Shown here piece after piece: positions 18,135-64,000 of a DNA stretch of 64,000 nt. The position numbers and the translations under genes were made by a program. This DNA is from a virus. The notes below the pieces were generated by a model, which worked only from the letters and a program-made list of their open reading frames with translations, was not told where the DNA came from and ran no database searches. The DNA lies in the IMG/VR virus record IMGVR_UViG_3300043427_003273, positions 36,902 through 100,901 of that record; one strand, written 5' to 3'. Every line of letters begins with the position of its first letter. Position 1 is the first letter of the stretch.

Positions 18135-18135
18135 A

Positions 18136-37544: not shown

Positions 37545-37561
37545 TTTATTTGTTTAATTTA

Positions 37562-48547: not shown

Positions 48548-48548
48548 A

Positions 48549-50849: not shown

Positions 50850-50897
50850 CTATAAAATACACCAATCTTAGGTTATTTATTCAACTTTTCAAATTAA

Positions 50898-51131: not shown

Positions 51132-51163
51132 TTTTGCTCCTGATTGACTAAAATCAGAACTTT

Positions 51164-51628: not shown

Positions 51629-51710
51629 AGAGAGATATTCGGGTATAGAGATATTTAACAGAGAGGAACGCGTTGCGGGATTTTTACTTCATAAGAATTC
51701 ATAAAGACAC

Positions 51711-51734
51711 AAAAAAACAGGGGTTGCCCCCTGT
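51711..51734 (-). terminator. Rho-independent terminator
   Basis: ACAGGGGGCAACCCCTGTTTTTTT. Confidence 0.85.
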
Positions 51735-51744
51735 AACTTTGTAA

Positions 51745-51891
51745 TTATTTTCCTTGTCCCCTATATCTTTTCCTTGCCTTGTTTCTACTGGATGCAGCAT
51801 ACTTGGTATGTTTCCCTTCACCCTGTCGGGATTTTTTGGGTGTAGATTCCAGGAATGCTGTACCGATTAGTGATTTTTTAATAGCAGCCAT
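51745..51891 (-). CDS. Small very basic protein (48 aa)
   Basis: Not in ORF track. MAAIKKSLIGTAFLESTPKKSRQGEGKHTKYAASSRNKARKRYRGQGK*; TAATG-coupled to the upstream ORF and followed by a terminator. Confidence 0.8.
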   Translation of the reverse strand: MAAIKKSLIGTAFLESTPKKSRQGEGKHTKYAASSRNKARKRYRGQGK

Positions 51892-52043
51892 TAGTCAATT
51901 GCCTCCAATTCAAGAAATTCTGGATCAAACTCTCCTTCATTATAAAACTTTTCTGCCAGTTCGTCAAGGACTTCTGTAGATTGTTCATAAGAAAGGTCTT
52001 TGTGAATAATTCGACCCTTATACAGAATATTAAACTTTCCCAT
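51891..52043 (-). CDS. Small acidic protein (50 aa)
   Basis: Not in ORF track. MGKFNILYKGRIIHKDLSYEQSTEVLDELAESFYNEGEFDPEFLELEAID*. Confidence 0.75.
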   Translation of the reverse strand: MGKFNILYKGRIIHKDLSYEQSTEVLDELAEKFYNEGEFDPEFLELEAID

Positions 52044-52049
52044 AAGATA

Positions 52050-52931
52050 TCAGATTACTCGGGTCTTTTCGTGTCCAACACGGATACGAGGATCACACCA
52101 GATCTCAAATCCTGCTTCTTTTGCATCGAGACAGAACGAAACGTCTTCTCCGCACATATCTTGTACTGCACCAGACTCAAAGACTTGCATCTTAGGTGCA
52201 AACCAAGGATACTTCATCTCCTCATGCTCAAATACACCATTCTTAATCATGACCCAACCAAATCCAGTGTAATCAACTGTAAATGGTTTCTTACGTTTGC
52301 TGATGCCATCAACCATCTCATGATTCATTACACCACCGTTATTACGGAAGTCATCTTCATCCAACCAGTGAGCAACAGAGGTGGTACGACCATCTTCTGT
52401 GCAATACCATCCAGCAGCAATGGGATGATCTTTTTCTGGATTTGCTTTGAGACTACGAGAAATTACATTTCCATTCTGATCAACTTTCTCTTCAAATGTA
52501 GCTCCTTGATTTCCTTCTTCATCTTCAGTATAAATTACTGCATCTTCGGGGAATGCAAGATCACAGAGTTGCCAGAATTTTTCCGTATTGAATACGATGT
52601 CACTGTCAATCCAGAGTTGGTAATCATAAGGAAGTCGTCCATCCCAGGGAATCTGATCAGGTCCTCGGAGAACATTTGCACCTAAACACTTGCAACGTGC
52701 AAAATTAACCATTGATGAGTAATCTTGAGAAATCTGAATACTCATCTGATTTTGTACAAGATCGAAACAGAGTTGTACAAAAGATTTGAGAAATTGGAAC
52801 GAGCACCCTCTGCCAGGCAAGCAGAAAACAATCGTCTTACCTCTCATGCGCTCTTTGATTTTTGCGTAGTCCCATTCCTCACCCTTTTCAACCTTAGGTG
52901 GGTTTGCTTTTACTGTGAATCCTTTTGCCAT
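52050..52931 (-). CDS. GT-A-fold glycosyltransferase-like protein
   Basis: WIDSDIVF (DxD), TGFGWVMI, GEDVSFC and VGHEK motifs. Confidence 0.75.
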   Translation of the reverse strand: MAKGFTVKANPPKVEKGEEWDYAKIKERMRGKTIVFCLPGRGCSFQFLKSFVQLCFDLVQNQMSIQISQDYSSMVNFARCKCLGANVLRGPDQIPWDGRLPYDYQLWIDSDIVFNTEKFWQLCDLAFPEDAVIYTEDEEGNQGATFEEKVDQNGNVISRSLKANPEKDHPIAAGWYCTEDGRTTSVAHWLDEDDFRNNGGVMNHEMVDGISKRKKPFTVDYTGFGWVMIKNGVFEHEEMKYPWFAPKMQVFESGAVQDMCGEDVSFCLDAKEAGFEIWCDPRIRVGHEKTRVI

Positions 52932-52984
52932 AATAGTATCAATGTTCAGTTAATATTTTAAAGTATTTTAATATAACAGTCAAG

Positions 52985-53203
52985 TCAATGAGAAGATTCT
53001 AATGTTATTTTCTTATTGACTACAAGTTCCTCATAAGATAAATCAGCAGTCTCATAATTACCTCCGAGAAGTTCTGTGAGGTAATTTAATGTATCCCAAT
53101 TTTTTTGAAATTCTTCTTCGGGCAAACTATGATAAACACACTTACCTTTTAAGTAGATATGATAAATCTTCGTTTCACTCATGAATCTTATTCGGTCTCT
53201 CAC
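52985..53203 (-). CDS. Conserved hypothetical protein
   Basis: KIYHIYLKGKCVYHSLPEEEF; late promoter box at 53209. Confidence 0.7.
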   Translation of the reverse strand: MRDRIRFMSETKIYHIYLKGKCVYHSLPEEEFQKNWDTLNYLTELLGGNYETADLSYEELVVNKKITLESSH

Positions 53204-53207
53204 TGGG

Positions 53208-53438
53208 TTATTTATGTGTATACCTTAGAAGCACTATCATAAGAAACATGAGGATACTTATGAGTTTTATCGAGGGTGGTCCGAAAATTATGAGTCCTAA
53301 TAAGACTGCAGAGATCCTTAGCATTTGTGCTGGATATCTTATTAACCATCCAACTAACACTGCTCGGTAGATATTCCAATAGGGGGTTTTGGGGGAATTT
53401 TTACCACGGGAAAATTTTTGATATCGACCGTAAACCAT
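53208..53438 (-). CDS. Small membrane protein
   Basis: TPYWNIYRAVLVGWLIRYP followed by hydrophobic segments; start uncertain. Confidence 0.6.
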   Translation of the reverse strand: MVYGRYQKFSRGKNSPKTPYWNIYRAVLVGWLIRYPAQMLRISAVLLGLIIFGPPSIKLISILMFLMIVLLRYTHK

Positions 53439-53545
53439 TTTGAAAATAATATAGAGATTGTTATATATCGACCGATTATCAAGATTTGTAGGTTAGAAGG
53501 ACCCATCAATTTTAGCTACGGGCGGGACCGACCGTAATCGGCACA

Positions 53546-53602
53546 CATAAGAACTGCTAATACATCACGAACGACCCATAAGGACTGCTGATGTATCACG
53601 AA
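53546..53602. repeat. 26-bp direct repeat (22/26 identical) at the early/late boundary
   Basis: CATAAGAACTGCTAATACATCACGAA (53546) and CATAAGGACTGCTGATGTATCACGAA (53577). Confidence 0.8.
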
Positions 53603-53631
53603 GGGGGCAATGTGTGCCCCCTAAGTATACC

Positions 53632-53904
53632 TTACTCTGCTGCCTGTTCGATAGCAACGAGGTTGCCATTTGCCCTTGCTTGTGCAATCAAACGACCGAG
53701 GGAGATACCCTTACAATCAGTGTAGGAGATGATCTCAATCAGATCAGCACAGAACTCAGGGTTGCTATTGAAACCGTATGCACGGTTTGTGTTGTTTTGG
53801 AAGATCACTTCGACATAACCTTCCTGCTCAATGTGCAGGTTCTGGATTGCACTCGATTCGGCAACGGTGAAGGTGCGGAAGACAGGTGCGGTTGCGGTGG
53901 TCAT
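53632..53904 (-). CDS. Early protein, KTSC-like
   Basis: ESSAIQNLHI...VEVIFQ...AYGF...SLGRLI resembles KTSC; start reassigned to ATG 53904, downstream of the TACAAT promoter. Confidence 0.6.
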   Translation of the reverse strand: MTTATAPVFRTFTVAESSAIQNLHIEQEGYVEVIFQNNTNRAYGFNSNPEFCADLIEIISYTDCKGISLGRLIAQARANGNLVAIEQAAE

Positions 53905-53974
53905 GGTGTGCGGTGCGTGTTTGCTTGTTAATTGTACCATGGGGAGGGGGGATCTGTGAATCCCCCCGAAGGGG

Positions 53975-54232
53975 TCAGGGCAGGGGGGATGCCATTGCCT
54001 TGAAGGTGCCCCATGCGGTTTTGATCTTGGTTCCGATCCGTTTGCCAGAGGTGCAACCAGAGGACCATCCGAAGTGGGGGTTCCACTGTTGCACGTTGCC
54101 GCACCACTGAACCCAGTTGGTGTTGCCTGCGGGGCACCAGGGGTCGTCAGAGTACAGACGAACGTAACCGCAGACCGAGGAGAGTTCTGCCATGCGGAGT
54201 TCGATGCGTTCTGCGTCGGAGAGGTGGATCAC
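53975..54232 (-). CDS. Early hypothetical protein
   Basis: GTG start after TGcTACACT -10 box (~54260). Confidence 0.6.
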   Translation of the reverse strand: MIHLSDAERIELRMAELSSVCGYVRLYSDDPWCPAGNTNWVQWCGNVQQWNPHFGWSSGCTSGKRIGTKIKTAWGTFKAMASPLP

Positions 54233-54298
54233 GGGGTTTCCCTTGCGGTTGACTCTGACAGTGTAGCACGGGGAGGGGGCATTGCTGCCCCCGTTGCC

Positions 54299-54577
54299 TC
54301 AGAACATGGTGGCAACGATGCGGTCCCGTTTGCGGATGGCATCGGTGCGGATGAACCACAGATCCCGTTTGCCCGTCTTCTCATTGCGGGTGGAACCCAG
54401 GATCTCCTGCCGTTCCATTTGGCAGAGCACTGCGTGGATCGTGCCCTTGTGCTCACGGGGGTTCAGACCCATGGCACGGGTGAGGTCGGAGAGGGTCTTA
54501 GGACCCTGCTGGATCAGGATGCCACGGGTGAAGACACGCACGGGCAGGGTCAGGACGGGGGTGAGGTCGAGGGTCAT
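54299..54577 (-). CDS. Early winged-HTH-like protein
   Basis: GPKTLSDLTRAMG...GTIHAVLCQMERQEIL...TGKRDLWFI pattern. Confidence 0.6.
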   Translation of the reverse strand: MTLDLTPVLTLPVRVFTRGILIQQGPKTLSDLTRAMGLNPREHKGTIHAVLCQMERQEILGSTRNEKTGKRDLWFIRTDAIRKRDRIVATMF

Positions 54578-54659
54578 GGGGTGTTCCCTTGGTTGACTTG
54601 TTCAGTATAAGGGGTGGAGAGGGGGCACTGCTGCCCCCCATGTGCAACTTAACGAACTG

Positions 54660-55385
54660 TCACACCCCCAGTGCTGCCCGCAGTTCTTTCTTGACTGTAC
54701 GGTTTGCCCGTGCATGTTTGCCCCAGTCAGACCCTGCAGGTTGCGTACCATGCACCAGGATGGCATAAGGACCAGGAGTGAAACAATGCCGTTCGTCTAC
54801 ATCAACAGGCAGACCCAGAGCATCAGCAACCTCCACAGATTCGACGACCTTAGCATAACGAGGGAAGTATCCTTCGTCGATCAGGTAGTCAAACTTGCCA
54901 CCATAAGATGCGGTGAGGTAGAAGTTCTCGGGCAGATCCAAACCCATAAAAAGGTTGAGGGATTTGCTGTAGCAGTAGAACTTAATCGTAGGATTTGCCA
55001 TTGCCACCATCACCCATGCTTGGAGATAGTGTGCATTGAAGAAGTCACCCGATTCATGAATGCGAACACGTTTGTGCTTCTTCTTCAGGTTCTTATGCAG
55101 TTCGGTGTTGATAAAGTCGGCAAGGTTGCCATTCTTCATAACATCCAGAACCTGGGCAAAGTTGTCTGCACGGTTGAAGAATACCTGATCGTATTGCACC
55201 TCAGAGGATGCAGCAAAGCAACGGAACTCGGTGTGAGGACCATCTGCGATCTTGCGACCCTCAGGTGTCACAACTGCAAACGATTTGCAGAACATCGCAC
55301 CAGGGCAGGTCTTTCCTGCGGGCAGGTTGAAGATCAGGGTGTTTTTGTTGATCTTTGCGTTGCCAGTGGAGAAGTGCAGTGCCAT
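54660..55385 (-). CDS. GP88-like protein (radical-SAM-related Cys motif)
   Basis: GNAKI...FNLPAGKTCPGAMFC...CFA...RVRIHESGDFF...FYCYSK; start reassigned to ATG 55385. Confidence 0.75.
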   Translation of the reverse strand: MALHFSTGNAKINKNTLIFNLPAGKTCPGAMFCKSFAVVTPEGRKIADGPHTEFRCFAASSEVQYDQVFFNRADNFAQVLDVMKNGNLADFINTELHKNLKKKHKRVRIHESGDFFNAHYLQAWVMVAMANPTIKFYCYSKSLNLFMGLDLPENFYLTASYGGKFDYLIDEGYFPRYAKVVESVEVADALGLPVDVDERHCFTPGPYAILVHGTQPAGSDWGKHARANRTVKKELRAALGV

Positions 55386-55457
55386 TGGTTCAGGTGGTGA
55401 ACTTCGATCAGTGTAGGGCATGGGTGGGGACCGTTGCCGATCCCCTTGTGCAGGTTG

Positions 55458-55619
55458 TCAGGGTGTCACAGTGGGGATGTCATCAACCCACACAATACCC
55501 CACAACTCATCCACTGTAACCTCCAGCATTGCTGCCAGACCCTCATCATCCATCACCGCAGGGGAGATGTCGATCAGGGGGTGCTCGTCGATCTGGATCA
55601 TCGTGCAGAACAGGTCCAT
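55458..55619 (-). CDS. Small acidic early protein (53 aa)
   Basis: Not in ORF track. MDLFCTMIQIDEHPLIDISPAVMDDEGLAAMLEV...; preceded by TAGGAT -10. Confidence 0.65.
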   Translation of the reverse strand: MDLFCTMIQIDEHPLIDISPAVMDDEGLAAMLEVTVDELWGIVWVDDIPTVTP

Positions 55620-55691
55620 GGGTCGTTTGCGGTTGACTGGTTCATCCTACAGCATGAGGGGCACCGTTGGGGGTGCCCAGTTCACAAACCT

Positions 55692-55943
55692 TCACATCAT
55701 GGAAATGACTTGCATGATGCTAGAAACCTGAACAGGAGTTTGCCAGGAAATTACATCCTCCAGCATGTTGTTGTTGGGTCTGATGATAGCAACCTCAAAG
55801 GTATCCTCACCGATGACACCATACAGACCAGAACCTTTCGGACCTGCAACTACACTTACTTTCCATTCATTCGGGAAAGTATGTTGGGCAATCGTGCCAC
55901 CTTTGATGACACCATGATCACGAAAGTTCAGAGTGGAGAACAT
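55692..55943 (-). CDS. Early hypothetical protein
   Basis: MFSTLNFRDH...FPNEWKVSVV...GLYG...TFEVAII; promoter TATAGT at 55968. Confidence 0.75.
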   Translation of the reverse strand: MFSTLNFRDHGVIKGGTIAQHTFPNEWKVSVVAGPKGSGLYGVIGEDTFEVAIIRPNNNMLEDVISWQTPVQVSSIMQVISMM

Positions 55944-56022
55944 TGTCCTGTCCGATTGACTGAAACAACTATAAGGGGTCGGGGGCACCGTTTGGCACCC
56001 CCAGTGGACACCTGGCAAGGTG

Positions 56023-56472
56023 TCACATCTTGCCTTCTTTCACCAAACGATCATAAAGTGCAGAGGCAATCTTACCACATTCGGGACATGCTTTCGCATA
56101 CTTAATGTCCGAACGAAGTGTGGCAACGTTGTTGTTAGTCTTGGGCAGATACTTCACCCGATAAACTGCAGAAACCAGTTTGAGTAGTTGACGTTTCTGC
56201 AGATCACCATGAATGCTCTTCCACTGATAAACAGGGGTGAAATACTGATAGTTGTTGCCTTCGGTGCGGCACTTCTGCAGTGCCTTGATGATGTTGGCAG
56301 AAGTCAGATCACCGAAGTAAGGTGTGAGTTCCTGGTGCATAAACACGTCGAACTCTTCTGCTTCCGTGAGAACTTTGATCTTGTCGGTAAGAGACTCCAT
56401 GGTGCGTTGAATCGCATCCATGTTGCTCTTCAGGTTGAGGACTTCGTTCTGGAGGATAGCAATGGTGGTCAT
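56023..56472 (-). CDS. Early protein with N-terminal coiled coil
   Basis: Start reassigned to MTTIAILQNE, downstream of the palindrome promoter. Confidence 0.7.
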   Translation of the reverse strand: MTTIAILQNEVLNLKSNMDAIQRTMESLTDKIKVLTEAEEFDVFMHQELTPYFGDLTSANIIKALQKCRTEGNNYQYFTPVYQWKSIHGDLQKRQLLKLVSAVYRVKYLPKTNNNVATLRSDIKYAKACPECGKIASALYDRLVKEGKM

Positions 56473-56590
56473 GATGTGTTGCGGAGGTGTGATGGGTGTG
56501 TGTCCCTCCGATGCACATAAGATCCCACAGATCCTGGGGCACCACAAGGGGGTTTGTGCCACCTGTCGAACTGTCCATTCTCATGTTGAC

Positions 56591-56616
56591 AAAAAAAAGA
56601 GGGGTGCTAACCCCTC
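56591..56616 (-). terminator. Rho-independent terminator
   Basis: GAGGGGTTAGCACCCCTCTTTTTTTT. Confidence 0.9.
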
Positions 56617-56622
56617 ATGAGA

Positions 56623-56811
56623 TCAAAACTCGATCTCCCAATCTTTGTCGTGGTGAATGTCAACCCAGAAATGGTTTTTACCATTTGCAGATGTAACAAA
56701 CACCTTATCACCTTTGTTCTGTTCGATGATAACTTCATCAACAGAATCCATCAGATTTGCGAATCGGTTTTTTGCCTTTTTGGATTTGGGAAAGACAAAT
56801 GCTGTTTCCAT
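56623..56811 (-). CDS. Conserved cyanophage early protein
   Basis: PKSKKAKNRFANLM...IEQ...FWVD...DKDW; last gene of its operon. Confidence 0.75.
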   Translation of the reverse strand: METAFVFPKSKKAKNRFANLMDSVDEVIIEQNKGDKVFVTSANGKNHFWVDIHHDKDWEIEF

Positions 56812-56954
56812 TAGAACTCAATCCAATCCGAAGTGGGTTCATTTGCAATCATAGCATCATCCTCCTCCCCCATGGCAATGGTGTCGAGGATCTTAAGAAT
56901 CTCTTCACCAGTGGAACCCTGACGAAGCATGGACAGCATGAGTTGTTTGGTCAT
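56811..56954 (-). CDS. Small early protein (47 aa)
   Basis: Not in ORF track. MTKQLMLSMLRQGSTGEEILKILDTI...; TAATG-coupled to the next ORF. Confidence 0.7.
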   Translation of the reverse strand: MTKQLMLSMLRQGSTGEEILKILDTIAMGEEDDAMIANEPTSDWIEF

Positions 56955-57002
56955 GATAAGAATGTGTGAACGTTTGTAGTTTAGGTGATAACTCGTCGAG
57001 AT

Positions 57003-57236
57003 TTAAGTGTCTTGTGACACTTGTTCTTGTGTCACATCCTCGACCAGTTCTTGCCAGTATTCCTCATCATAAATTGATGTGATGAGGTCTTCCATGTCAT
57101 GTTGATTAGCAGATTGAAAAGAATCTACCAGCATCTCATAGAGCATTTGTTCCATTGATTTCGTGTCCATTTCATCAACGACACGATCACAATATTTCTC
57201 GATGATTTCATCGAGTTGTTGAGGAGTGAGATTCAT
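57003..57236 (-). CDS. Acidic early protein
   Basis: ATGA-coupled; very D/E-rich. Confidence 0.75.
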   Translation of the reverse strand: MNLTPQQLDEIIEKYCDRVVDEMDTKSMEQMLYEMLVDSFQSANQHDMEDLITSIYDEEYWQELVEDVTQEQVSQDT

Positions 57237-57442
57237 TTGATTTCACAATAATCAATGGACTTGATGCACCAACCTGTTTCATTTGTGATCTCATCAACGA
57301 GATCCTCTTCATCCTCAATGTCCCAATCGCAATTCATAACATTGCGAATGATCTCTTCTTGAGGAACAGGATCACCTTCCCATCCTTCATCATAATCATC
57401 ACCGAAATCAAACTCAATGGCAGTAATCTTGAAAGTTTTCAT
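57233..57442 (-). CDS. Acidic early protein
   Basis: ITAIEFDF...DEEDLVDEITNETGWCIKSIDY. Confidence 0.75.
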   Translation of the reverse strand: MKTFKITAIEFDFGDDYDEGWEGDPVPQEEIIRNVMNCDWDIEDEEDLVDEITNETGWCIKSIDYCEIK

Positions 57443-57567
57443 TTTGCAGTAGAAGATGCGAAGGATTGAATACCATCAATGGCACGATTGCCCATGTTGG
57501 CTATACCATTGAAACCAACGGTTGAGAGAATAACTCCAACCACAAGACCAACGAAAAACTTACTCAT
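57439..57567 (-). CDS. Small membrane protein (42 aa)
   Basis: Not in ORF track. MSKFFVGLVVGVILSTVGFNGIA...; ATGA overlaps at both ends. Confidence 0.7.
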   Translation of the reverse strand: MSKFFVGLVVGVILSTVGFNGIANMGNRAIDGIQSFASSTAK

Positions 57568-57698
57568 TGAGGCACCTCTTGAATCACCTCTTCAATGGAA
57601 ATGATTTGTTTGTCTTCATTGATGTAATCAGTGCGAACAAGATTCGGTCCAACTTGTGTTTGACCGATGATGTAAGCAGCAGCAAGAAGTTCAATCAT
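57564..57698 (-). CDS. Small early protein (44 aa)
   Basis: Not in ORF track. MIELLAAAYIIGQTQVGPNLVRTDYINE... Confidence 0.65.
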   Translation of the reverse strand: MIELLAAAYIIGQTQVGPNLVRTDYINEDKQIISIEEVIQEVPQ

Positions 57699-57798
57699 CT
57701 TGTGTTTGGTAGTATTCAATGAGTGTATTCTCGTCGAGATTTTCTAACTCTTCGTCAGAAATCTGATTGAGAATTGAAAAGATGTCGTCAAAAGTCAT
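57691..57798 (-). CDS. Acidic micro-protein (35 aa)
   Basis: Not in ORF track. MTFDDIFSILNQISDEELENLDENTLIEYYQTQDD*. Confidence 0.55.
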   Translation of the reverse strand: MTFDDIFSILNQISDEELENLDENTLIEYYQTQDD

Positions 57799-57913
57799 TG
57801 TTCGACTCCAACGCAACACCAAATGCGTAGTCATCGTATTCAATGTCATCGAAATCTTCAGATTCGATGAGATCCAGAAGTGGATCAGTGTTCAGAAGAT
57901 CGTCGTGCTCCAT
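57788..57913 (-). CDS. Extremely acidic micro-protein (41 aa)
   Basis: Not in ORF track. MEHDDLLNTDPLLDLIESEDFDDIEYDDYAFGVALESNNDF*; first ORF after the palindrome promoter at 57970. Confidence 0.65.
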   Translation of the reverse strand: MEHDDLLNTDPLLDLIESEDFDDIEYDDYAFGVALESNNDF

Positions 57914-57992
57914 GTGTTTGTTTCGACTCTTGTATTATGTAGCAGGACACTGGGGAAATCCAGTGTCCTTGTGCCACTTGTGAGAGTGTCTA

Positions 57993-58373
57993 CTATTCGC
58001 AGAACACCTCACCCTTATGTGTTAACCACACTCTCTTTGCATTGTGTACATCACCATTGCGAGTTTGGAAGAAATCATTATGATAAGGATTGTAATTTAC
58101 CCTTACCATCTTCTCTTCACATCCCAATGTGTTTGCCATGAGTGTACCATACGCAAAGGCATGAACATACTTTTTGTTCTCTTTGCGGACACGATTCTGC
58201 CCTGCTTTGTTCACAACAAAGTGAACATCGTCGAGAACCACATAATCCCAACGCAACCACACTCTCCAACCCTTGGGAGTTTTGCGTTGAATGCTCCAGC
58301 AACCGTCCCGCAGGTTGCGGTAGACACGGACGGTCTCCTTGTGAAGAACGGGTTCGCCTTTGTGGTTTTTCAT
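57993..58373 (-). CDS. Conserved phage early protein
   Basis: VRVYRNL...WSI...FVVNKAGQNRVRKE.KKYVHAF...VNYNPY; start reassigned to ATG 58373. Confidence 0.8.
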   Translation of the reverse strand: MKNHKGEPVLHKETVRVYRNLRDGCWSIQRKTPKGWRVWLRWDYVVLDDVHFVVNKAGQNRVRKENKKYVHAFAYGTLMANTLGCEEKMVRVNYNPYHNDFFQTRNGDVHNAKRVWLTHKGEVFCE

Positions 58374-58451
58374 GAGGTGTCTCAGGAACAAACGTAGTAT
58401 GCCATGAATCAGGGGGGACCGCAATCCCCCCGTGTGCCAGTTGTCAGGGTG

Positions 58452-58616
58452 TCACAGGCACCCGTTGGCATCAAGAAAACCAGCACACCATCCATCCCCA
58501 TAATAGTAACCAATGTAATAGTTACCAAATGAGATACCAAATTGTTCTTCCATGTGATGGGTATTCTTCAGATCCCAACCAATGTAGAAGAATTTGGTGT
58601 TGAATGAGAATTTCAT
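58452..58616 (-). CDS. Small aromatic-rich early protein (54 aa)
   Basis: Start reassigned to ATG 58616; leader identical to that of the 58373 gene. Confidence 0.7.
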   Translation of the reverse strand: MKFSFNTKFFYIGWDLKNTHHMEEQFGISFGNYYIGYYYGDGWCAGFLDANGCL

Positions 58617-58686
58617 GAGGTGTCTCAGGAACAAACGTAGTATGGCAGGGATCTCATGAGAACACAAGACCCCTTGTGCCAGTCTC

Positions 58687-59124
58687 TCAACTGGACATCT
58701 TTACATACTGCTCGATGATGTTTGAGATCTCAGAAGGACCAATCTGTGTACCATCCTTCAGTATAAACGACTGATAAGGATCGACACCTTCCCGAGAATC
58801 AATTGTGGTAGAATTGATGGTCATGAACTTAGAAGTCATGGCATCTTGACGAATTTGATCACTTAACCAATCCCAAAGTTCAGTGTCATGATTATCCTCT
58901 TCGGTGTCACAGTTAATGAGAATCTCATTCCCATTCTGCCACACGTACTTTTCAAACTCAGTGATCACATCATCATACTCCATGTCTGCCAACCAGGAGA
59001 TACTCTCACTGAGATCATCCACATGATTACCAATGAAATCTACAAGAGATTTAAAATACTCTTCCAGGTTAAAATCATCAGCAACCTGACACTTGGAAGT
59101 GCAAACAAATTGAGTGTAGGACAT
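58687..59124 (-). CDS. Acidic early protein (145 aa)
   Basis: Own palindrome promoter; stop codon inside the next palindrome. Confidence 0.75.
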   Translation of the reverse strand: MSYTQFVCTSKCQVADDFNLEEYFKSLVDFIGNHVDDLSESISWLADMEYDDVITEFEKYVWQNGNEILINCDTEEDNHDTELWDWLSDQIRQDAMTSKFMTINSTTIDSREGVDPYQSFILKDGTQIGPSEISNIIEQYVKMSS

Positions 59125-59196
59125 GAGAGTTCTGTGGGGAACAAATGTAATGTAACAGGGATCTTATGAGAACACAAGACCCCTTGTGCCACTTGA

Positions 59197-59421
59197 TCAG
59201 GTGTCTGCTGAGATGAAAGTTTCAAAGAACAAATCCCATGCGGGACTATCAGCAACAAAGGAATGAATTCCTACCTGATCACATACCCATTCGTATGCCA
59301 TATCGCAATCTGCGTTAGTATCTAACACAAATGATTGCAATCCAGAAATTACATCAAGAAACACTGAATCTTCAATCAAAGATTGACGAAACTTCTTGGT
59401 GTGCTGATCTTGGATGATCAT
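59197..59421 (-). CDS. Early hypothetical protein
   Basis: DCDMAYEWVCDQ; own palindrome promoter. Confidence 0.75.
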   Translation of the reverse strand: MIIQDQHTKKFRQSLIEDSVFLDVISGLQSFVLDTNADCDMAYEWVCDQVGIHSFVADSPAWDLFFETFISADT

Positions 59422-59454
59422 GAGATTTGTGTGAACTGTGAATATCTTATGGGA

Positions 59455-59592
59455 TCAAATCCAGAACTGTTGGGACACTTGTGCAGGTTTTGAATCTGGC
59501 ACACCAGTCCTTGACCCATACCATCCCATGATGCTAAAGGCAATTCCCATAAGAACTGCAAAACTTACAAGTTCTGATGATTTAATATTCAC
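59455..59592 (-). CDS. Small membrane protein (45 aa, GTG start)
   Basis: Not in ORF track. (M)NIKSSELVSFAVLMGIAFSIMGWYG...; GTGA-coupled to the upstream ORF. Confidence 0.5.
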   Translation of the reverse strand: MNIKSSELVSFAVLMGIAFSIMGWYGSRTGVPDSKPAQVSQQFWI

Positions 59593-59729
59593 AGAAACTC
59601 CATCATGTAGTAATCAACAGTTACTTCCTGTTCTGCTGCTAATTCTTCCAATGCCATATCAAAGGCATTGTCAATCTCATTCTTTTGATCCTCATGATCA
59701 CAGAAGAGATCTAATGTTGATTCATTCAT
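59589..59729 (-). CDS. Acidic micro-protein (46 aa)
   Basis: MNESTLDLF...EVTVDYYMMEFL; downstream of TTGACA-18-TATACT (59800-59829). Confidence 0.7.
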   Translation of the reverse strand: MNESTLDLFCDHEDQKNEIDNAFDMALEELAAEQEVTVDYYMMEFL

Positions 59730-59799
59730 GGTGGTGAGTGTTTTAGAGGTCTCTGAGATCTTATAAGAGTTAATAACCCTTATCAACCTCGACAAGGCA

Positions 59800-59829
59800 A
59801 GTATAGCATCAATCAGCATACCCTGTCAA
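59800..59829 (-). promoter_or_regulatory. Sigma70-type early promoter
   Basis: TTGACA-18 bp-TGcTATACT. Confidence 0.8.
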
Positions 59830-59955
59830 GCCCCCTCGGTGTGTTGGACGAAACCAACATAAGACCCTTATGGGGGATCTGATGCCAACCCTGTGCCACT
59901 TGCAGAAGTGTCCACAATGCGGGTTTTGCGGGGTGTTCAATGCTTATAATACGGA

Positions 59956-60067
59956 GACAATCAAATGAGAGGTGGGGTAACCTTGTTGATTAAATGTTCG
60001 ACACTGAACCTGCAATAAAATAATTATCATAAGATACTAAAAAGGATCCCTGATATCAGGAATCCTT
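59956..60067 (+). ncRNA. Candidate ~110-nt RNA or 17-aa peptide mRNA
   Basis: TATAAT at 59945, 29 bp from palindrome 59892; ends at hairpin 60039-60067; only ORF is 59965-60018. Confidence 0.4.
60039..60067 (-). terminator. Terminator hairpin, possibly bidirectional
   Basis: AAGGATTCCTGATATCAGGGATCCTTTTT on the minus strand. Confidence 0.75.
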
Positions 60068-60102
60068 ATGTGTGTATTCTCGTCGAGATTTTTATGATAT
60101 AT

Positions 60103-60273
60103 TCACCACCTATCAGGGCATGAGAGATCTTCCACATAACTGGAAACTTTCTCATTTGCTTGAAGATCCAGAACTTTATTCCAATCAATTTGATGTGGAT
60201 CAAAGTCATCGAGTGCTTCAATTTCCAATGTGACTCTATACTTTTGTTTTTGCATTGCACGATAGACAGACAT
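60103..60273 (-). CDS. Conserved cyanophage small protein (56 aa)
   Basis: MSVY...KYRVTLEIEALDDFDPHQIDWNKVLDLQ; promoter TTGACA-17-TAAACT at 60302-60330. Confidence 0.75.
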   Translation of the reverse strand: MSVYRAMQKQKYRVTLEIEALDDFDPHQIDWNKVLDLQANEKVSSYVEDLSCPDRW

Positions 60274-60393
60274 AAGAACCTCGGGGAATTGGAACATATT
60301 CAGTTTATCATGATGTGGGTGGGGTGTCAACTGTTCTTATGTATATCTCGTCGAGATTATTTGAGATCTTATGTGAGCATAAGATAACATAAG

Positions 60394-60455
60394 AAAAAAG
60401 ATGATCTCGATGGTATTTGTTGAGCATCATCGAGATTCACCTTGGTTAACCCACC
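60394..60455 (-). ncRNA. Candidate ~60-nt small RNA
   Basis: TTGACA-17-TATGAT (60462-60490), then ATCTCGATG/CATCGAGAT stem and a U6 tract; no ORF. Confidence 0.5.
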
Positions 60456-60609
60456 GAAGACATCATAAGACATCTATGGGAATCTGTCAACCCCTGTTCT
60501 TATGAGATGTGTGAGAATCTCGACATGCCTGGGTGATTAGGAGATCTTATGTGATAAGGAGTTCTTATGTGAAAAAATGTCTCGGGGTCCAGAAAAAAAA
60601 TCGTCCCCC

Positions 60610-60638
60610 TTGACAAAAAAACCATCGTGTGTTATAAT
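60610..60638 (+). promoter_or_regulatory. Perfect-consensus sigma70 promoter with extended -10
   Basis: TTGACA-17 bp-TATAAT with TGn. Confidence 0.9.
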
Positions 60639-60658
60639 AGGCGGTCTAAGATCACAAG

Positions 60659-60777
60659 ATCCCGACGCATTTATAATGATATAATGTGAATCTCGACGCA
60701 TTTATAAGATATAAAAGAACACATAAGAACACATATGATATGATGTGAATCTAGTAGAGATATGATGTGAATCTAGT
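60659..60777. repeat. AT-rich tandem repeat cluster
   Basis: CGACGCATTTATAA x2, AAGAACACATA x2, GATATGATGTGAATCTAGT x2 (60737 and 60759). Confidence 0.85.
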
Positions 60778-60833
60778 TGAGAACCTTTTATTTATACCAT
60801 AAAATTGTGAGCAAAACATAACACAAACCATAT

Positions 60834-60865
60834 TTTTCCACAAAGTTTTCCACAGGTTTTCCACA
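60834..60865 (+). promoter_or_regulatory. Three tandem DnaA-box-like 9-mers (TTTTCCACA)
   Basis: Copies at 60834, 60846 and 60857 (11-12 bp period); two more at 61017 and 61029 (one mismatch). Confidence 0.65.
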
Positions 60866-60938
60866 ATGACATACATCCTGATCCCATCTATGTGCATGTC
60901 ATACCATACATAATCTAGTACACTTGAGAACACTGACT

Positions 60939-61511
60939 ATGACTAAGAAATGGTTAAATGAACTCAAAGGAATGCAATGCTATGAAGGATACTATATTAC
61001 ACCAGAAGGTCTGATCTTTTCCACAAAGTATTCCACAGATAGACAACTTAAATTTAATGATGTGAAAGAGTATAAGACCATACGATTGAGCAATGGTAAG
61101 GGTGAGAATCGTACCTTCTATGTTCATCGTCTTATTGCATTATCCTTTCTTCCGAATCCATCATGTGCAGTGAAGATCAGACATAAGAACGGAAACACAC
61201 ATGATAATCATGTGACTAACTTAGAATGGATTGTGAAGAAAAAGATCATTCGTAAGTATGATCCTATTAAGAGTAGAGAACGATATGAGAAGAATAAAAG
61301 CAAGAAAGAATATTTGGATCCATCTTGTCTAATTGTGAATAAGGACATGAGTGATAGAATACGTTTGATTCATTATGCCACAATACAAAAAGGACTCTCA
61401 ACACCTGTAGAAGATTATGACTTCTTCTATAAGATCTTACATGAGAGTTTGAATGAATATATTAACCGTTATGGTTTGAGACGTATTATGTTTCAACTTG
61501 GGAATAATTGA
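60939..61511 (+). CDS. HNH homing endonuclease (NUMOD4/I-HmuI-like)
   Basis: YYITPEGLIFS; VHRLIALSFLPNP...RHKNGNTHDNHVTNLEW; the only credible plus-strand gene. Confidence 0.85.
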   Translation: MTKKWLNELKGMQCYEGYYITPEGLIFSTKYSTDRQLKFNDVKEYKTIRLSNGKGENRTFYVHRLIALSFLPNPSCAVKIRHKNGNTHDNHVTNLEWIVKKKIIRKYDPIKSRERYEKNKSKKEYLDPSCLIVNKDMSDRIRLIHYATIQKGLSTPVEDYDFFYKILHESLNEYINRYGLRRIMFQLGNN

Positions 61512-61894
61512 GAAATGACGATTTCACCTTTGAAATGATTTTGTAGTTTTTTGATTTTTTCCTTGAATTTGTTTGGTGGGCAGGTTTGTCGTCCTAGGTT
61601 CATCAGACGTAACGTAATCACGACATTTCCAGGAATATATCCTTTCGACTCATCTAATCGGTCTAATGATGGTGCAAATGGATTTTGAGATTCATACACA
61701 CCATAAGGATCAATAGGATAATCAGACCAATAACATTTACCATCTTGACTCTTATATTGTTGTGCAATATATTGTTCGGTGATTGTCACATCCAATGGTT
61801 CAGTTCTTTTGATTCCATTCTTTTTCTCTTGCCCTGGTTTTGCGGCGGACTTTGCTTTGGCAAGAAGTGTTTTCCATGGATTACGTTGTTTCAT
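61493..61894 (-). CDS. His-Me-finger/HNH-like endonuclease
   Basis: QDGKCYWS...PSLDRLDESKGYIPGNVV...MN. Confidence 0.7.
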   Translation of the reverse strand: MKQRNPWKTLLAKAKSAAKPGQEKKNGIKRTEPLDVTITEQYIAQQYKSQDGKCYWSDYPIDPYGVYESQNPFAPSLDRLDESKGYIPGNVVITLRLMNLGRQTCPPNKFKEKIKKLQNHFKGEIVISQLFPS

Positions 61895-62054
61895 GTCGTT
61901 TTTTACATACAGATCGTGCCCAGGCAGAAGCGAATGATTGAATCACAGAGCATGATTTCCCCACTTTACCACAATAGGGGCATGGTGTTGAATCAATGAT
62001 CTTTGGTTTTCTCTTTTTTGCGTTTTCTGCTTGTTTTCGTTTGTGGTGATTCAT
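61881..62054 (-). CDS. Small basic Cys-containing protein
   Basis: MNHHKRKQ...CPYC...C...C; ATGA-coupled. Confidence 0.6.
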   Translation of the reverse strand: MNHHKRKQAENAKKRKPKIIDSTPCPYCGKVGKSCSVIQSFASAWARSVCKKRHETT

Positions 62055-62359
62055 TCTTTGTTCAGGAACCACCAACCCAGACCAATCAGAATGGCAATCG
62101 GGAGAATAATATACCAATATGCCACAACTGCACCGATGGCAAATAGAATACCGATAATTGCCCATCCACCACTGCCCAGTTCGATGCCACCACCACCTCC
62201 GCCACCAGAACCACGGACTTCTCGCAAATTGATGATTTGCTCTGCACCGTAGATGTTTTTCAGTTGCTCATGTGCTCCATTGATCGTGTTGGCAGATACT
62301 TCGATGTCTTGATAACCCGAAGCACTACCCAACCAGCATTTCGCAGTCCATCGTGCCAT
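62051..62359 (-). CDS. Early membrane-anchored protein with poly-Gly linker
   Basis: AGGAG SD; MARWTAKCW...GSGGGGGGGIE followed by two hydrophobic segments. Confidence 0.75.
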   Translation of the reverse strand: MARWTAKCWLGSASGYQDIEVSANTINGAHEQLKNIYGAEQIINLREVRGSGGGGGGGIELGSGGWAIIGILFAIGAVVAYWYIILPIAILIGLGWWFLNKE

Positions 62360-62385
62360 AATGAGATTTCTCCTTGTGATGTGTG

Positions 62386-62422
62386 TATGATAGCATGAAA
62401 AAGGGGGATTTGACAATCCCCC
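62386..62422 (-). terminator. Terminator hairpin overlapping the next promoter
   Basis: GGGGGATTGTCAAATCCCCCTTTTT contains TTGTCA (-35); TGcTATCAT follows. Confidence 0.75.
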
Positions 62423-62429
62423 GTGTGAT

Positions 62430-62915
62430 TCACTTCATGTAAAGATAAGAACCTGCCCAATCAGCACGACGGTAACATTCCTCACGGGATTGCTTGTCCA
62501 TGAGATTGTAACGCACATGCTTGGCAGGCGATTTCCATGTTGCAGGTTTATACACTTCACCAGTGAATTTGTTCACAAAAGCATGAATGCTCTTTTGCTT
62601 CACACTGCCATCATGATTGACATTAGTTTCCGTTTCAATGCGAAGATACTTGCGACCTTCGACAATGTAGAAACTCATGCCATAATCATAAGTGCCATTG
62701 CGAATCTGCTCCAGGCACTTCTCATGATAACCCACATAAGACCCATCCACAATACCATTGTTGGCAATGGCATGTTGATGAGATTTCGTGGTGTAAAGAC
62801 GGAAGTTCTCATCCAGGGCATTGACCAGGGATTCAGTGTAACGAAGAACATCGTTCACTTGTGCTTCCACCACTGGACGGGTGGCAACGAAGTCAGAGAA
62901 GGTGCTGGTGGTCAT
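62430..62915 (-). CDS. Conserved cyanophage early protein
   Basis: GRKYLRI...SIHAFVNKFTGEVYKPATWKSPAKHVRYNL...ADWAGSYLY. Confidence 0.85.
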   Translation of the reverse strand: MTTSTFSDFVATRPVVEAQVNDVLRYTESLVNALDENFRLYTTKSHQHAIANNGIVDGSYVGYHEKCLEQIRNGTYDYGMSFYIVEGRKYLRIETETNVNHDGSVKQKSIHAFVNKFTGEVYKPATWKSPAKHVRYNLMDKQSREECYRRADWAGSYLYMK

Positions 62916-62999
62916 GGAAGGGGTGCCTCCTTGTGTATGAATGTATTGTAGGGCATCCTGGGTGCCAGTCGATGCCCTGTGTGCCAGTTTGCAAACCGT

Positions 63000-63170
63000 C
63001 TACTCTACGTTGCAGTCGGGATGCCAGTGTGCTTGTTGCTGACAATACCTTTCCTTGGGTGAATACCCATTTGCCTTGAACAGTGCATCATCACGTTGAA
63101 TCAGAAATGCGTTCCATCCAACAATCGCAGCAAAAGCAGCAATTCCAAAACCAATGTACTTAAGTTTCAT
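63000..63170 (-). CDS. Small membrane-anchored protein (56 aa)
   Basis: Not in ORF track. MKLKYIGFGIAAFAAIVGWNAFLIQRD...WHPDCNVE*. Confidence 0.7.
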   Translation of the reverse strand: MKLKYIGFGIAAFAAIVGWNAFLIQRDDALFKANGYSPKERYCQQQAHWHPDCNVE

Positions 63171-63177
63171 TTGTCAA

Positions 63178-63648
63178 TCACCAGGATGCACGATATTCAA
63201 ACTCCCAAGATTCGGGAGCATTCTTCAGAATCTTTTGAAGCATAAGAATCGTATTCTCCAAATCATCATAATAATACTGATCAAGTTCAGTGCCACCGAA
63301 GAAGAAACCAGATTGAGGAGGCAACAGTTCTCCTGCTCGACTCCTATCTTTCAACACAGTTTCACACCTCCACAGAAGCTCTACAAGAGCATCTTGAGAC
63401 ACATAGATGTCTTGACATTCATCTTTACCATTACCACACCTATCCACAAAATACTTGTGAATTTGATTTGCTTTCCTCCAATATGCAATTTGCAGTTTCA
63501 CTTCAGCAAATTGCAGATCATCAGAATCCAGGAACTTGGTTCCTTTCATCAGACGAGCAATGGATTTCACTTTCTTGCAATCATCTTCCTTGCTCCAAGA
63601 AGACGAAGAAACGAATTGCTTCGCATAGAGATACATGTCAAGTCCCAT
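63178..63648 (-). CDS. Conserved phage protein (MGLDMYL...YWRKANQIH...GFFFG...YRASW family)
   Basis: Start reassigned to ATG 63648 after AGGAG. Confidence 0.85.
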   Translation of the reverse strand: MGLDMYLYAKQFVSSSSWSKEDDCKKVKSIARLMKGTKFLDSDDLQFAEVKLQIAYWRKANQIHKYFVDRCGNGKDECQDIYVSQDALVELLWRCETVLKDRSRAGELLPPQSGFFFGGTELDQYYYDDLENTILMLQKILKNAPESWEFEYRASW

Positions 63649-63673
63649 GATAATGCTCCTGTGTGTAAGTGAA

Positions 63674-63835
63674 TCAGTTTTCAGGATAGAGTTTCCAACC
63701 ATCAGGTTGAATACCCATTTCTTCACAACGCACTTCATAAACAATGCGTTTCAGAAGACGCAGGGGCATTTCCTGCTCGATTGTTTTCTGAATGATGCGA
63801 CGGAGTTGTGCGTCTGTGGTAGTGTCAGTGACCAT
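63674..63835 (-). CDS. Small early protein (53 aa)
   Basis: Not in ORF track. MVTDTTTDAQLRRIIQKTIEQEMPL...; follows palindrome promoter 63897. Confidence 0.7.
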   Translation of the reverse strand: MVTDTTTDAQLRRIIQKTIEQEMPLRLLKRIVYEVRCEEMGIQPDGWKLYPEN

Positions 63836-63907
63836 TGGAGTGTCCGTTGATTACCTTGTTAGTATAAGGGCACCCTGCGTGGTGCTGGATGCCCTGTGTG
63901 CCAGTTC

Positions 63908-64000
63908 TTATGCTGTCACATAGTTGGGAATGTCAACACGTTCTGCGATGCCAAACATACCAGTTTTGTATGCTTTCCAGTTGTCATTCAGATCGAACAG
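63908..64000 (-). CDS. Partial early ORF (3' end only)
   Basis: ...DLNDNWKAYKTGMFGIAERVDIPNYVTA*; stop lies inside palindrome 63897. Confidence 0.55.
   Translation of the reverse strand: MFDLNDNWKAYKTGMFGIAERVDIPNYVTA

What the first reader, a model, noticed from the sequence alone, without database searches (positions are those of the whole stretch)
53525..64000. Early region is purged of VGCB: nearly every GpC is TGC or GCA
Seen, reading line by line: from ~53,525 to 57,498 (well over 100 GpC steps, the most GC-rich part of the window) I found no AGCC, AGCG, AGCT, GGCC, GGCG, GGCT, CGCC, CGCT or CGCG. From there to 64,000 I found only about 9 (near 57499, 58355, 59829, 60640, 61844, 61929, 62200, 62527, 63377). 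By composition roughly half of GpC steps should be VGCB. The rule holds in all frames and in intergenic hairpins (GGGGGCAGCAATGCCCCC), so it is not codon bias. Such sites occur regularly in late genes (several in g23, though perhaps partly depleted) up to 53514/53521. Knowledge: RGCY/RGCB is CviJI-type specificity, and first-entering DNA of T7/T5 is depleted of restriction sites, but T4-like genomes are usually circularly permuted. Inference, three options: (a) the phage marks VGCB sites with a modification or bound protein that blocks unmodified host RNA polymerase, so immediate-early genes form a mark-free zone; (b) a phage-encoded VGCB-directed host-shutoff factor spares these genes; (c) this region enters first and evades a degenerate GC-specific host defence. 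Any of these would be an undescribed, regionally encoded self/non-self system.
Basis: partly seen in the sequence, partly recalled or inferred. Interest (0 to 1): 0.9.

Follow-up and report, generated by a model that had tools for sequence, protein, structure and literature searches.

The report
VGCB-free early genes in cyanophage
In this uncultured T4-like cyanophage the block of small early genes has been rewritten so that the four-letter DNA word VGCB (GC not preceded by T and not followed by A) is absent. Model cyanophages such as Syn9 show the same early-block purge for a sister word (RGCY), which points to an unidentified GC-cutting or GC-binding enzyme whose pressure falls hardest on the genes the phage needs first.

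Summary
Window 53525-57498 has 190 GpC and no VGCB. The stretch 57499-64000 has 9 VGCB in 201 GpC. Synonymous-codon shuffles predict 55.5±4.4 and 53.7±4.5 sites for the two halves of the coding sequence; 0 and 6 are found. The rule holds in all codon phases and in 726 nt of spacers. GpC itself is not depleted; TGCC/GGCA is the most over-represented tetramer. This is selection on context, not codon bias or methyl-C decay.

Depletion is graded: early small genes about 0.05 of expectation, replication genes about 0.28, structural genes about 0.65.

The pattern is general. Related uncultured phages share the purge. Syn9 and S-RIM8 show the same gradient for RGCY. Another lineage avoids YGCR genome-wide. 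One relative's early block lacks nearly all 4-bp palindromes.

All three motifs are two-fold symmetric. I therefore read this as restriction-type avoidance on double-stranded DNA, strongest in DNA that must work first. The enzyme and the cause of the regional pattern are not identified. No cytosine methylase was found. I found no report of this pattern.

The parts
53525..57498 (.). Core VGCB-free zone: 190 GpC, 0 VGCB, GC about 50%. Holds eleven small minus-strand genes and their GC-rich hairpin spacers.
57499..64000 (.). Continuation of the small-gene block to the contig end: 201 GpC, 9 VGCB (6 in coding sequence against 53.7 expected).
53603..53621 (-). Hairpin GGGGGCA-ATGTG-TGCCCCC downstream of the last gene of the block (53632-53940). 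The purge ends about 80 nt beyond it, at 53521/53514.
   Evidence: Read; site list.
53546..53602 (.). Two 26-nt direct repeats (CATAAGRACTGCTRAT..ATCACGAA) in the spacer at the boundary of the purged block. Possible regulatory element; function not tested.
   Evidence: Read.
54660..55421 (-). Largest gene of the core zone (253 aa, Pfam GP88 PF17338): 48 GpC, 0 VGCB, 14 expected. Its ortholog in G001/G002 has 13 VGCB in 54 GpC.
57003..57442 (-). Two very acidic small proteins (77 and 69 aa, net charge -18 and -17), typical of early host-takeover or DNA-mimic proteins. Function unknown.
58687..59124 (-). Acidic 145-aa early protein (net charge -22). Confident fold (pLDDT 91.6) with no match in the PDB. 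One homolog was binned in a Vulcanococcus MAG.
59800..60638 (.). Sigma-70-type promoter matches in the block: minus strand 60490-60462 (11/12) and 59829-59800 (11/12, with TG); plus strand 60610-60638 (12/12).
2927..50447 (-). Late structural genes: major head protein, scaffold, portal, tube, sheath, TerL, giant baseplate/fibre proteins. They keep VGCB at about 0.65 of the codon-shuffle expectation.
1..64000 (.). CCGG is absent from the whole window and from the whole 100.9-kb contig (about 95 sites expected). This is a separate, genome-wide purge.

Best explanation
VGCB is the target of a two-fold-symmetric enzyme that reads double-stranded DNA, with a GC core and thymine excluded 5' of the G on each strand. 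The enzyme is of restriction type and belongs to the same specificity class as CviJI (RGCY) and the GCB/GCY-reading phage methylases. Each site is costly to the phage and has been removed by choice of synonymous codons and codon neighbours.

The cost is far higher in the small-gene early block. These genes must be read from the single, unreplicated infecting genome in the first minutes, before the phage has taken over the host and multiplied its DNA. Genes needed later, for replication and then for the virion, are under progressively weaker pressure.

Shown: the purge, its symmetry, its independence of codon usage, the gradient, and its recurrence with other GC-core motifs in other cyanomyoviruses. 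Inferred: that the agent is a nuclease, who encodes it, and why early DNA is more exposed. Candidate reasons for the exposure are ordered or delayed entry, survival of an intact transcribable fragment, or later rescue by copy number and recombination.
For: 1. The purge is extreme and not due to codon usage: 0 against 55.5±4.4 and 6 against 53.7±4.5. It holds in spacers and in all codon phases.

2. GpC is kept (157 against 169.6). TGCB, VGCA and TGCA are all enriched 1.35-1.76-fold, and TGCC/GGCA is the top tetramer. Context is selected; GC is not decaying.

3. The three motif sets avoided in different Kyanoviridae lineages are each their own reverse complement, as expected for dimeric recognition of duplex DNA. 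VGCB is avoided here. RGCY is avoided in Syn9, S-RIM8, S-SRM01, Sf-FR1, L018 and L028. YGCR is avoided across the 190-kb G005.

4. There is a gradient here: early 0.05, replication genes 33/118 = 0.28, structural genes 180/279 = 0.65. The same order appears in Syn9 for RGCY: small-gene block 0.058, replication 0.29, head/tail 0.45. In S-RIM8 it is 0.022 against 0.21.

5. In relative G001 the 36-56 kb small-gene block has lost nearly all 4-bp palindromes: GATC 0.08, CATG 0.06, TCGA 0.07. Six-bp palindromes are at 0.24-0.37, against 0.6-0.9 elsewhere. That is the signature of type II restriction avoidance focused on early DNA.

6. CCGG is 0 in this contig but 61 (ratio 1.05) in the syntenic relative G003. 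A purge can therefore go to completion within this divergence, so the partial VGCB purge of late genes reflects weaker selection rather than lack of time.

7. There is precedent: only sites in the early-injected region decide R-M sensitivity in Autographiviridae (PMC12455610), and T5/BF23 have first-step-transfer DNA (PMC10644984).
Against: - No enzyme with VGCB specificity is known to me, and none was found.
- R-M systems are reported to be uncommon in marine picocyanobacteria (PMC6708340), yet marine phages show the RGCY and CCGG purges.
- A classical restriction cut anywhere in a single genome should be lethal, which predicts uniform depletion, not a gradient.
- T4-like genomes are thought to be circularly permuted, so 'enters first' is doubtful.
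- Some genes with a late-promoter motif are strongly depleted (785-aa virion protein 0.17, 445-aa 0.24), so timing is not the only variable.
- Unpurged GC-rich islands lie inside purged blocks of relatives: G001 33-34 kb has 51 VGCB in 92 GpC, and G003 4-8 kb has 85 in 263. They would be hard to tolerate if every early site were lethal.
Confidence: 0.5

Rival explanations
1. The phage encodes a VGCB/RGCY-directed weapon: a nuclease that degrades the GC-rich host chromosome or rival phages, or an Alc-like blocker of host RNA polymerase. It spares itself by having few sites, and none in genes read by unmodified host polymerase.
For: Cyanomyoviruses degrade host DNA although their own DNA is not known to be modified (86% of host gDNA degraded in P-HM2 infection, PMC5082946). 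R-M is uncommon in marine hosts (PMC6708340). The early<middle<late order matches dependence on unmodified host polymerase. The likely host is GC-rich (homolog in a Vulcanococcus MAG), so VGCB would be far denser in host DNA.
Against: A self-encoded nuclease should force a complete genome-wide purge, as seen for CCGG, yet about 340 VGCB remain in 90 kb. One factor cannot explain the pan-palindrome purge of G001's early block. No candidate gene was identified. A 4-bp degenerate site is weak for a roadblock.
Confidence: 0.17
2. The phage modifies its own DNA at GCB (a cytosine methylase, with or without TET and glycosylation). VGCB is then modified on both strands, and doubly modified sites hinder host polymerase on parental DNA, so early genes are kept mark-free.
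For: Phage clade-I C5-methylases methylate GC[C/T/G] but not GCA, and clade II methylates GC[C/T] (PMC8256090). The both-strand closures of these specificities are exactly VGCB and RGCY. Parental DNA would be fully modified and replicated DNA less so, which gives an early>late gradient.
Against: PF00145, PF01555 and Tet_JBP were not found in G000-G004, nor PF00145/PF01555 in the complete S-RIM8, S-SRM01 and Sf-FR1 genomes; only a D12 adenine methylase was found. Sites that would be modified on one strand are enriched. This reading does not explain G001's pan-palindrome purge. Fully hypermodified T4 DNA is transcribed by host polymerase (textbook knowledge).
Confidence: 0.1
3. Mosaic ancestry. 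The early cassettes circulate in a gene pool of phages that are purged genome-wide, and were joined by recombination to a less purged structural module. The regional pattern would then be history, not regional selection.
For: Purged and unpurged cassettes are interleaved in relatives. The gp88-like gene is purged here but not in G001/G002. Early and late parts differ in other words too: CATG 2.0 against 0.42, TCGA 1.1 against 0.34. Per-gene ratios correlate only weakly between G000 and G003 (rho 0.36, p = 0.075).
Against: The same early-stronger pattern recurs in distant lineages and for different motifs (Syn9, S-RIM8, G001, G000). Relatives at 55-90% amino-acid identity keep it, although CCGG shows that composition can turn over completely in that time. 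No genome-wide VGCB-free donor was seen.
Confidence: 0.12
4. RNA-level selection. An endoribonuclease active early in infection cleaves VGCB in transcripts, so early mRNAs are kept free of it.
For: The gradient follows expression time. The spacers and hairpins are transcribed. Unpurged islands would harm only their own mRNA.
Against: VGCB, RGCY and YGCR are all self-complementary sets, which is unexpected for recognition of single-stranded RNA. The pan-palindrome purge in G001 points to duplex DNA.
Confidence: 0.05
5. Mutational bias, for example deamination of methylated GpC.
For: GGTG/CACC are over-represented in the block.
Against: GpC is not depleted (157 against 169.6). TGCC/GGCA is enriched 2.2-fold. 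GC content is the highest in the contig. Zero sites of 190 is beyond what mutation pressure gives.
Confidence: 0.02

Closest known systems
Restriction-site avoidance confined to early-entering DNA: T5/BF23 first-step-transfer region, T7 class I region, Autographiviridae (PMC12455610, PMC10644984)
   Same: A contiguous block of early genes is far more strongly purged of nuclease target words than the rest of the genome. In relative G001 this extends to nearly all 4-bp palindromes.
   Different: The host phage is a T4-like myovirus with no known ordered or two-step entry and no mapped termini. The motif is a degenerate 4-mer with no known cognate enzyme. Depletion is graded (early, middle, late) rather than stepwise.
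CviJI system of chlorovirus IL-3A (R.CviJI cuts RG^CY; M.CviJI methylates RGCB), as I recall it
   Same: GC core with degenerate flanks that exclude A at the 3' side. RGCY itself is the word purged in Syn9, S-RIM8, S-SRM01 and Sf-FR1.
   Different: VGCB also includes CGCB. No CviJI-like gene or cytosine methylase was found. The relaxed CviJI* pattern (cuts RGCN and YGCY) does not match, because AGCA, GGCA, TGCC and TGCT are abundant here.
Phage C5-methylase/TET systems with GCB or GCY specificity (Burke et al. 2021, PMC8256090)
   Same: VGCB and RGCY are exactly the sites at which a GCB-reading or GCY-reading enzyme acts on both strands.
   Different: Those are modification enzymes found on other viral contigs. 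None is encoded in the sequences examined here.
Genome-wide palindrome avoidance in dsDNA phages (Rusinov et al. 2018, PMC6286503; cited from an earlier scan note, not read here)
   Same: Symmetric short words are removed by synonymous choices. CCGG here and YGCR in G005 are uniform cases.
   Different: For VGCB the purge is strongly regional.

Membership tests
Type II restriction-site avoidance | The avoided word is two-fold symmetric (its own reverse complement) | tested here: met
   VGCB, RGCY and YGCR are each self-complementary sets. All nine VGCB tetramers are at or below 0.10, and all seven other NGCN tetramers are at or above 1.19.
Type II restriction-site avoidance | Depletion beyond codon usage, in all frames and in non-coding DNA | tested here: met
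   Synonymous-codon shuffle gives 55.5±4.4 against 0 observed. Codon phases are 74/46/37. Spacers hold 33 GpC and 0 VGCB.
Type II restriction-site avoidance | A cognate endonuclease exists in the host or the phage | not testable with these tools
   The host is unknown (hint: Vulcanococcus). No family model exists for a VGCB enzyme, and none was found.
Type II restriction-site avoidance | Uniform depletion over the genome | tested here: not met
   0.03 in the early block against 0.24 and 0.35 elsewhere.
Leading / first-step-transfer region (T5, T7 type) | The purge is confined to one contiguous early block | tested here: met
   The same holds in G001, Syn9 and S-RIM8.
Leading / first-step-transfer region (T5, T7 type) | The block lies at a fixed genome end and enters the cell first | not testable with these tools
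   The contigs are linear fragments without terminal repeats, and their ends fall at different places.
Leading / first-step-transfer region (T5, T7 type) | The block encodes anti-restriction or takeover functions | tested here: inconclusive
   Only families of unknown function were hit. Several very acidic small proteins are present. One folds well but has no PDB match.
Self-modification at GCB (C5-MT with or without TET) | The phage encodes a cytosine methylase or Tet/JBP | tested here: not met
   Caveat: this contig is about 52% of a genome.
Self-modification at GCB (C5-MT with or without TET) | Virion DNA carries modified cytosine at these sites | not testable with these tools
   Needs LC-MS or long-read kinetics.

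The most novel reading that the evidence does not exclude
Picocyanobacteria or their T4-like phages carry an unrecognised family of frequent-cutting enzymes with a GC core and variable flanks (RGCY, VGCB, YGCR). Cyanomyoviruses answer with a site-free early block that stays intact and transcribable while the rest of the genome is still at risk. That would imply either ordered DNA entry in a T4-like phage or an 'express first, repair later' strategy that has not been described.
Probability: 0.3. Interest if true: 0.85.

Novelty: new variant of a known kind. Interest (0 to 1): 0.68.

Why it matters
Marine and freshwater picocyanobacteria are said to have few restriction systems, yet their dominant phages carry one of the strongest short-word purges I have seen, and it is graded by time of gene expression. 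If the reading is right:
- it reveals a major, unidentified DNA-targeting force in the most abundant phototroph-phage system on Earth;
- it gives a sequence-only way to mark early genes in uncultured cyanophage contigs;
- it can be tested directly in cultured phages (Syn9, S-RIM8), where the same pattern exists for RGCY;
- it raises the question of how a T4-like phage can make only part of its genome critical for surviving nucleases.

Tried and rejected
- Codon bias: rejected by the synonymous shuffle.
- Methyl-C decay: rejected because GpC is retained and TGCC/GGCA is enriched.
- Sequencing or assembly artefact: rejected. The purge recurs in contigs from at least eight independent metagenomes, with intact homologous ORFs.
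- CviJI* relaxed specificity: does not fit.
- General palindrome purge of this window's early block: not found. Non-GC-core 4-bp palindromes are at 0.97 there.
- Site-by-site comparison with L004: most of L004's VGCB lie in non-homologous inserted cassettes. The few aligned sites show both flank and core changes, which is not informative.
- Unpurged islands of relatives: Pfam gave only DUF6011.
- Search for cytosine methylases and Tet/JBP: negative.
- Acidic 145-aa early protein as a DNA mimic: confident model but no PDB fold match.
- Host retrieval through genome contigs: returned only a mis-binned 1.3-kb lake contig.
- Literature: no paper linking RGCY or CviJI with cyanophages.
Doron et al. 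2016 (Syn9 transcriptome) is not held. The assignment of the small-gene block as 'early' therefore rests on promoter matches, on the three-cluster description in PMC6708340, and on my memory of that paper.

Full report
**What the window is.** The window is the last 64 kb of a 100.9-kb IMG/VR contig. CheckV puts it at about 52% of a genome. It is a T4-like cyanomyovirus. PHROG hits identify the major head protein, scaffold, portal, tail tube, sheath, TerL, DNA polymerase, gp41, gp44, UvsX, UvsW, primase, gp46 and NrdA/B. The closest cultured relatives are only about 74% identical in DNA polymerase. Nearly all genes lie on the minus strand.

From 53.6 kb to the contig end lies a block of about 30 small genes separated by GC-rich hairpins. 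It carries sigma-70-type promoter matches. This is the hyperplastic small-gene block that in cyanomyoviruses holds the early host-takeover genes. The three temporal clusters are described in PMC6708340. The position of the early cluster in Syn9 I recall from Doron et al. 2016, which I could not open.

**The observation.** It is exact.
- Window 53525-57498 holds 190 GpC steps, and every one is TGC or GCA. There are 0 VGCB.
- Shuffling synonymous codons among the genes predicts 55.5±4.4 VGCB in the first half of the block and 53.7±4.5 in the second. Observed are 0 and 6.
- GpC falls in all three codon phases. The 726 nt of spacers have 33 GpC and no VGCB.
- Ala GCC/GCG/GCT codons are used, but only after a codon ending in T. 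GGC, CGC and AGC are used only before a codon starting with A.

**Not a decay process.** The number of GpC is as expected (157 against 169.6). The block is the most GC-rich part of the contig. TGCB, VGCA and TGCA are all enriched 1.35-1.76-fold, and TGCC/GGCA is the most over-represented tetramer. Methyl-cytosine deamination would remove GpC, not re-dress it. This is selection on the flanks of GC.

**A gradient, not a step.** Observed/expected values against within-gene codon shuffles are as follows:

| Gene class | Observed/expected | Examples |
|---|---|---|
| Early small genes | about 0.05 | |
| Replication and nucleotide metabolism | 33/118 = 0.28 | nrdB 0.00, UvsW 0.14, gp44 0.15, polymerase 0.21, nrdA 0.28 |
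| Structural | 180/279 = 0.65 | major head protein 0.63, portal 0.65, TerL 0.74, giant baseplate/fibre proteins 0.64-0.77 |

The order is not perfect. A 785-aa and a 445-aa virion protein, the first with a TATAAATA motif upstream, score 0.17 and 0.24.

**Relatives.**
- IMG/VR relatives of the gp88-like and DUF7717 genes show the same purge: L005 2/125, L007 2/120, and L029 2/61 over its first 1 kb.
- In the 122-kb contig G001, about 100 consecutive small genes (39-58 kb) hold 3 VGCB in about 400 GpC.
- Purged blocks contain unpurged GC-rich islands: G001 33-34 kb with 51/92, G001 60.8-61.6 kb with 36/68, and G003 4-8 kb with 85/263. Some orthologs differ: the gp88-like gene is 0/48 here and 13/54 in G001.

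**The wider pattern.** Tabulating all NGCN tetramers shows that different cyanomyovirus lineages avoid different degenerate GC-core words.
- RGCY is at 0.01-0.2 of expectation in Syn9, S-RIM8, S-SRM01, Sf-FR1, L018 and L028, with AGCG/GGCG-type words much less depleted or near normal.
- YGCR (plus GGCC) is at 0.00-0.17 uniformly along the 190-kb G005.
- VGCB is avoided in this phage.
- Each set is its own reverse complement, which is what a dimeric enzyme reading duplex DNA produces and is not expected for RNA recognition.

The early-block excess is general too:

| Phage | Region | RGCY observed/expected |
|---|---|---|
| Syn9 | Small-gene block 36-54 kb | 5/86.6 = 0.058 |
| Syn9 | Replication genes | 30/103 = 0.29 |
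| Syn9 | Head/tail genes | 48/106 = 0.45 |
| S-RIM8 | Small-gene block | 2/91 = 0.022 |
| S-RIM8 | Structural genes | 0.21 |

In G001 the 36-56 kb part of the small-gene block has lost almost all 4-bp palindromes: GATC 0.08 against 1.3 elsewhere, CATG 0.06, TCGA 0.07, GTAC 0.12. Six-bp palindromes are at 0.24-0.37 against 0.6-0.9 elsewhere. In this window's block, by contrast, only VGCB (and CCGG) are missing; other 4-bp palindromes are at 0.97.

**What this means.** Taken together, the symmetry of the words, the pan-palindrome block in G001 and the complete CCGG purge point to restriction-type pressure on duplex DNA. CCGG is 0 in 100.9 kb here but 61, ratio 1.05, in the syntenic G003. VGCB equals 'GCB on both strands' and RGCY equals 'GCY on both strands'. 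GCB and GCY are the two main specificities found for phage C5-methylases (PMC8256090). M.CviJI/R.CviJI read RGCB/RGCY (my recollection). The unknown enzyme therefore plausibly belongs to that recognition class.

Because CCGG was purged completely within the G000/G003 divergence, the partial VGCB purge in late genes indicates weaker selection there, not too little time.

**Why early DNA?** This is the unresolved part. Known precedents are DNA that enters first: T5/BF23 (PMC10644984), and Autographiviridae, where only sites in the early-injected region matter (PMC12455610). For a T4-like phage, ordered entry is doubtful and I could not test it.

Two alternatives remain, both inference:
- The early block must remain an intact transcribable fragment until takeover or anti-defence proteins are made.
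- Cuts in later-needed genes are rescued by copy number and by recombination-dependent replication.

The unpurged islands suggest that a site harms mainly the expression unit it lies in, rather than killing the genome.

**Rivals.**
- *Self-modification* is disfavoured. No C5 or N4/N6 methylase or Tet/JBP was found in five contigs of the lineage, nor a C5 or N4/N6 methylase in three complete genomes with the RGCY gradient. Only a D12 adenine methylase is present. One-strand sites are enriched.
- *A phage-encoded GC-directed weapon* remains possible. Host DNA is degraded during cyanomyovirus infection (PMC5082946), and R-M is rare in marine hosts (PMC6708340). It does not explain the roughly 340 remaining sites or G001's pan-palindrome block.
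- *Mosaic ancestry* contributes to the patchiness. It does not explain recurrence across lineages and motifs.
- *RNA-level selection and mutation bias* are unlikely, for the reasons given above.

**Habitat and host.** A homolog of an early protein was binned in a Vulcanococcus MAG, and another lies in a lake Nanopelagicaceae MAG. The best DNA match of the block is the freshwater phage S-SRM01. This is probably a freshwater phage of GC-rich picocyanobacteria, which would also explain the GC-rich early genes.

**Earlier scan notes.** Earlier notes of this scan describe RGCY purges in giant viruses, and a restriction-site-free early segment in other marine phages. I treated these as leads only.

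**Verdict.** I class this as a new variant of a known kind: restriction-type site avoidance concentrated in early DNA, here with a degenerate GC-core word and in T4-like cyanophages.

Noticed in passing
window 1-64000 and whole contig G000: CCGG is completely absent from 100.9 kb (about 95 expected). It is also near zero in Syn9 (0.01), S-RIM8 and Sf-FR1, but at normal frequency (61 sites, ratio 1.05) in the syntenic relative G003.
   Followed up: partly
G005 (L057-L066), 190 kb: This complete-looking cyanomyovirus avoids YGCR (TGCA, TGCG/CGCA, CGCG) uniformly genome-wide (0.00-0.17). GGCC is also low (0.10 in the 20.7-kb L012 part). RGCY is near normal. I know of no enzyme with YGCR specificity.
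   Followed up: partly
G001 (L037-L043) 36-56 kb: A 20-kb run of about 100 tiny genes lacks almost every 4-bp palindrome (GATC 0.08, CATG 0.06, TCGA 0.07), and 6-bp palindromes are at about 0.3. The flanking DNA is normal.
   Followed up: partly
G001 33.0-34.0 kb and 60.8-61.6 kb; G003 (L004) 5.3-6.8 kb: GC-rich (52-63%) cassettes with normal VGCB density sit inside purged blocks. They look like recent imports. Only DUF6011 was recognised in them.
   Followed up: partly
window 53546-53602: Two 26-nt direct repeats 31 nt apart, in the spacer between the early block's last hairpin and the next gene. Possible operator or promoter element.
   Followed up: no
window 53603-56616 (e.g. 53603-53621, 54276-54293, 54621-54640): Gene cassettes are separated by hairpins of the form GGGGGCA...TGCCCCC. 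They resemble the promoter-early stem-loop cassettes of T4-type phages, and their stems are written to obey the VGCB rule.
   Followed up: no
contig G000 28912-29796 (L055), minus strand: A D12-class (Dam-type) adenine methylase lies beside the clamp-loader gene, and GATC is over-represented 1.4-2.0-fold throughout the contig. Syn9 has a gene at the same position annotated 'cytosine specific ... Dam'.
   Followed up: partly
window 55458-55619, 57003-57442, 57691-57849, 58687-59124, 59197-59819: Seven small proteins with pI about 4.1 and net charge -9 to -22 cluster in the early block.
   Followed up: partly
window 53525-64000 against 2900-50400: CATG and TCGA run the opposite way to VGCB. They are at or above expectation in the early block (2.0, 1.1) and depleted in late genes (0.42, 0.34).
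   Followed up: no
It follows a perfect sigma-70 promoter match at 60610-60638.
   Followed up: no
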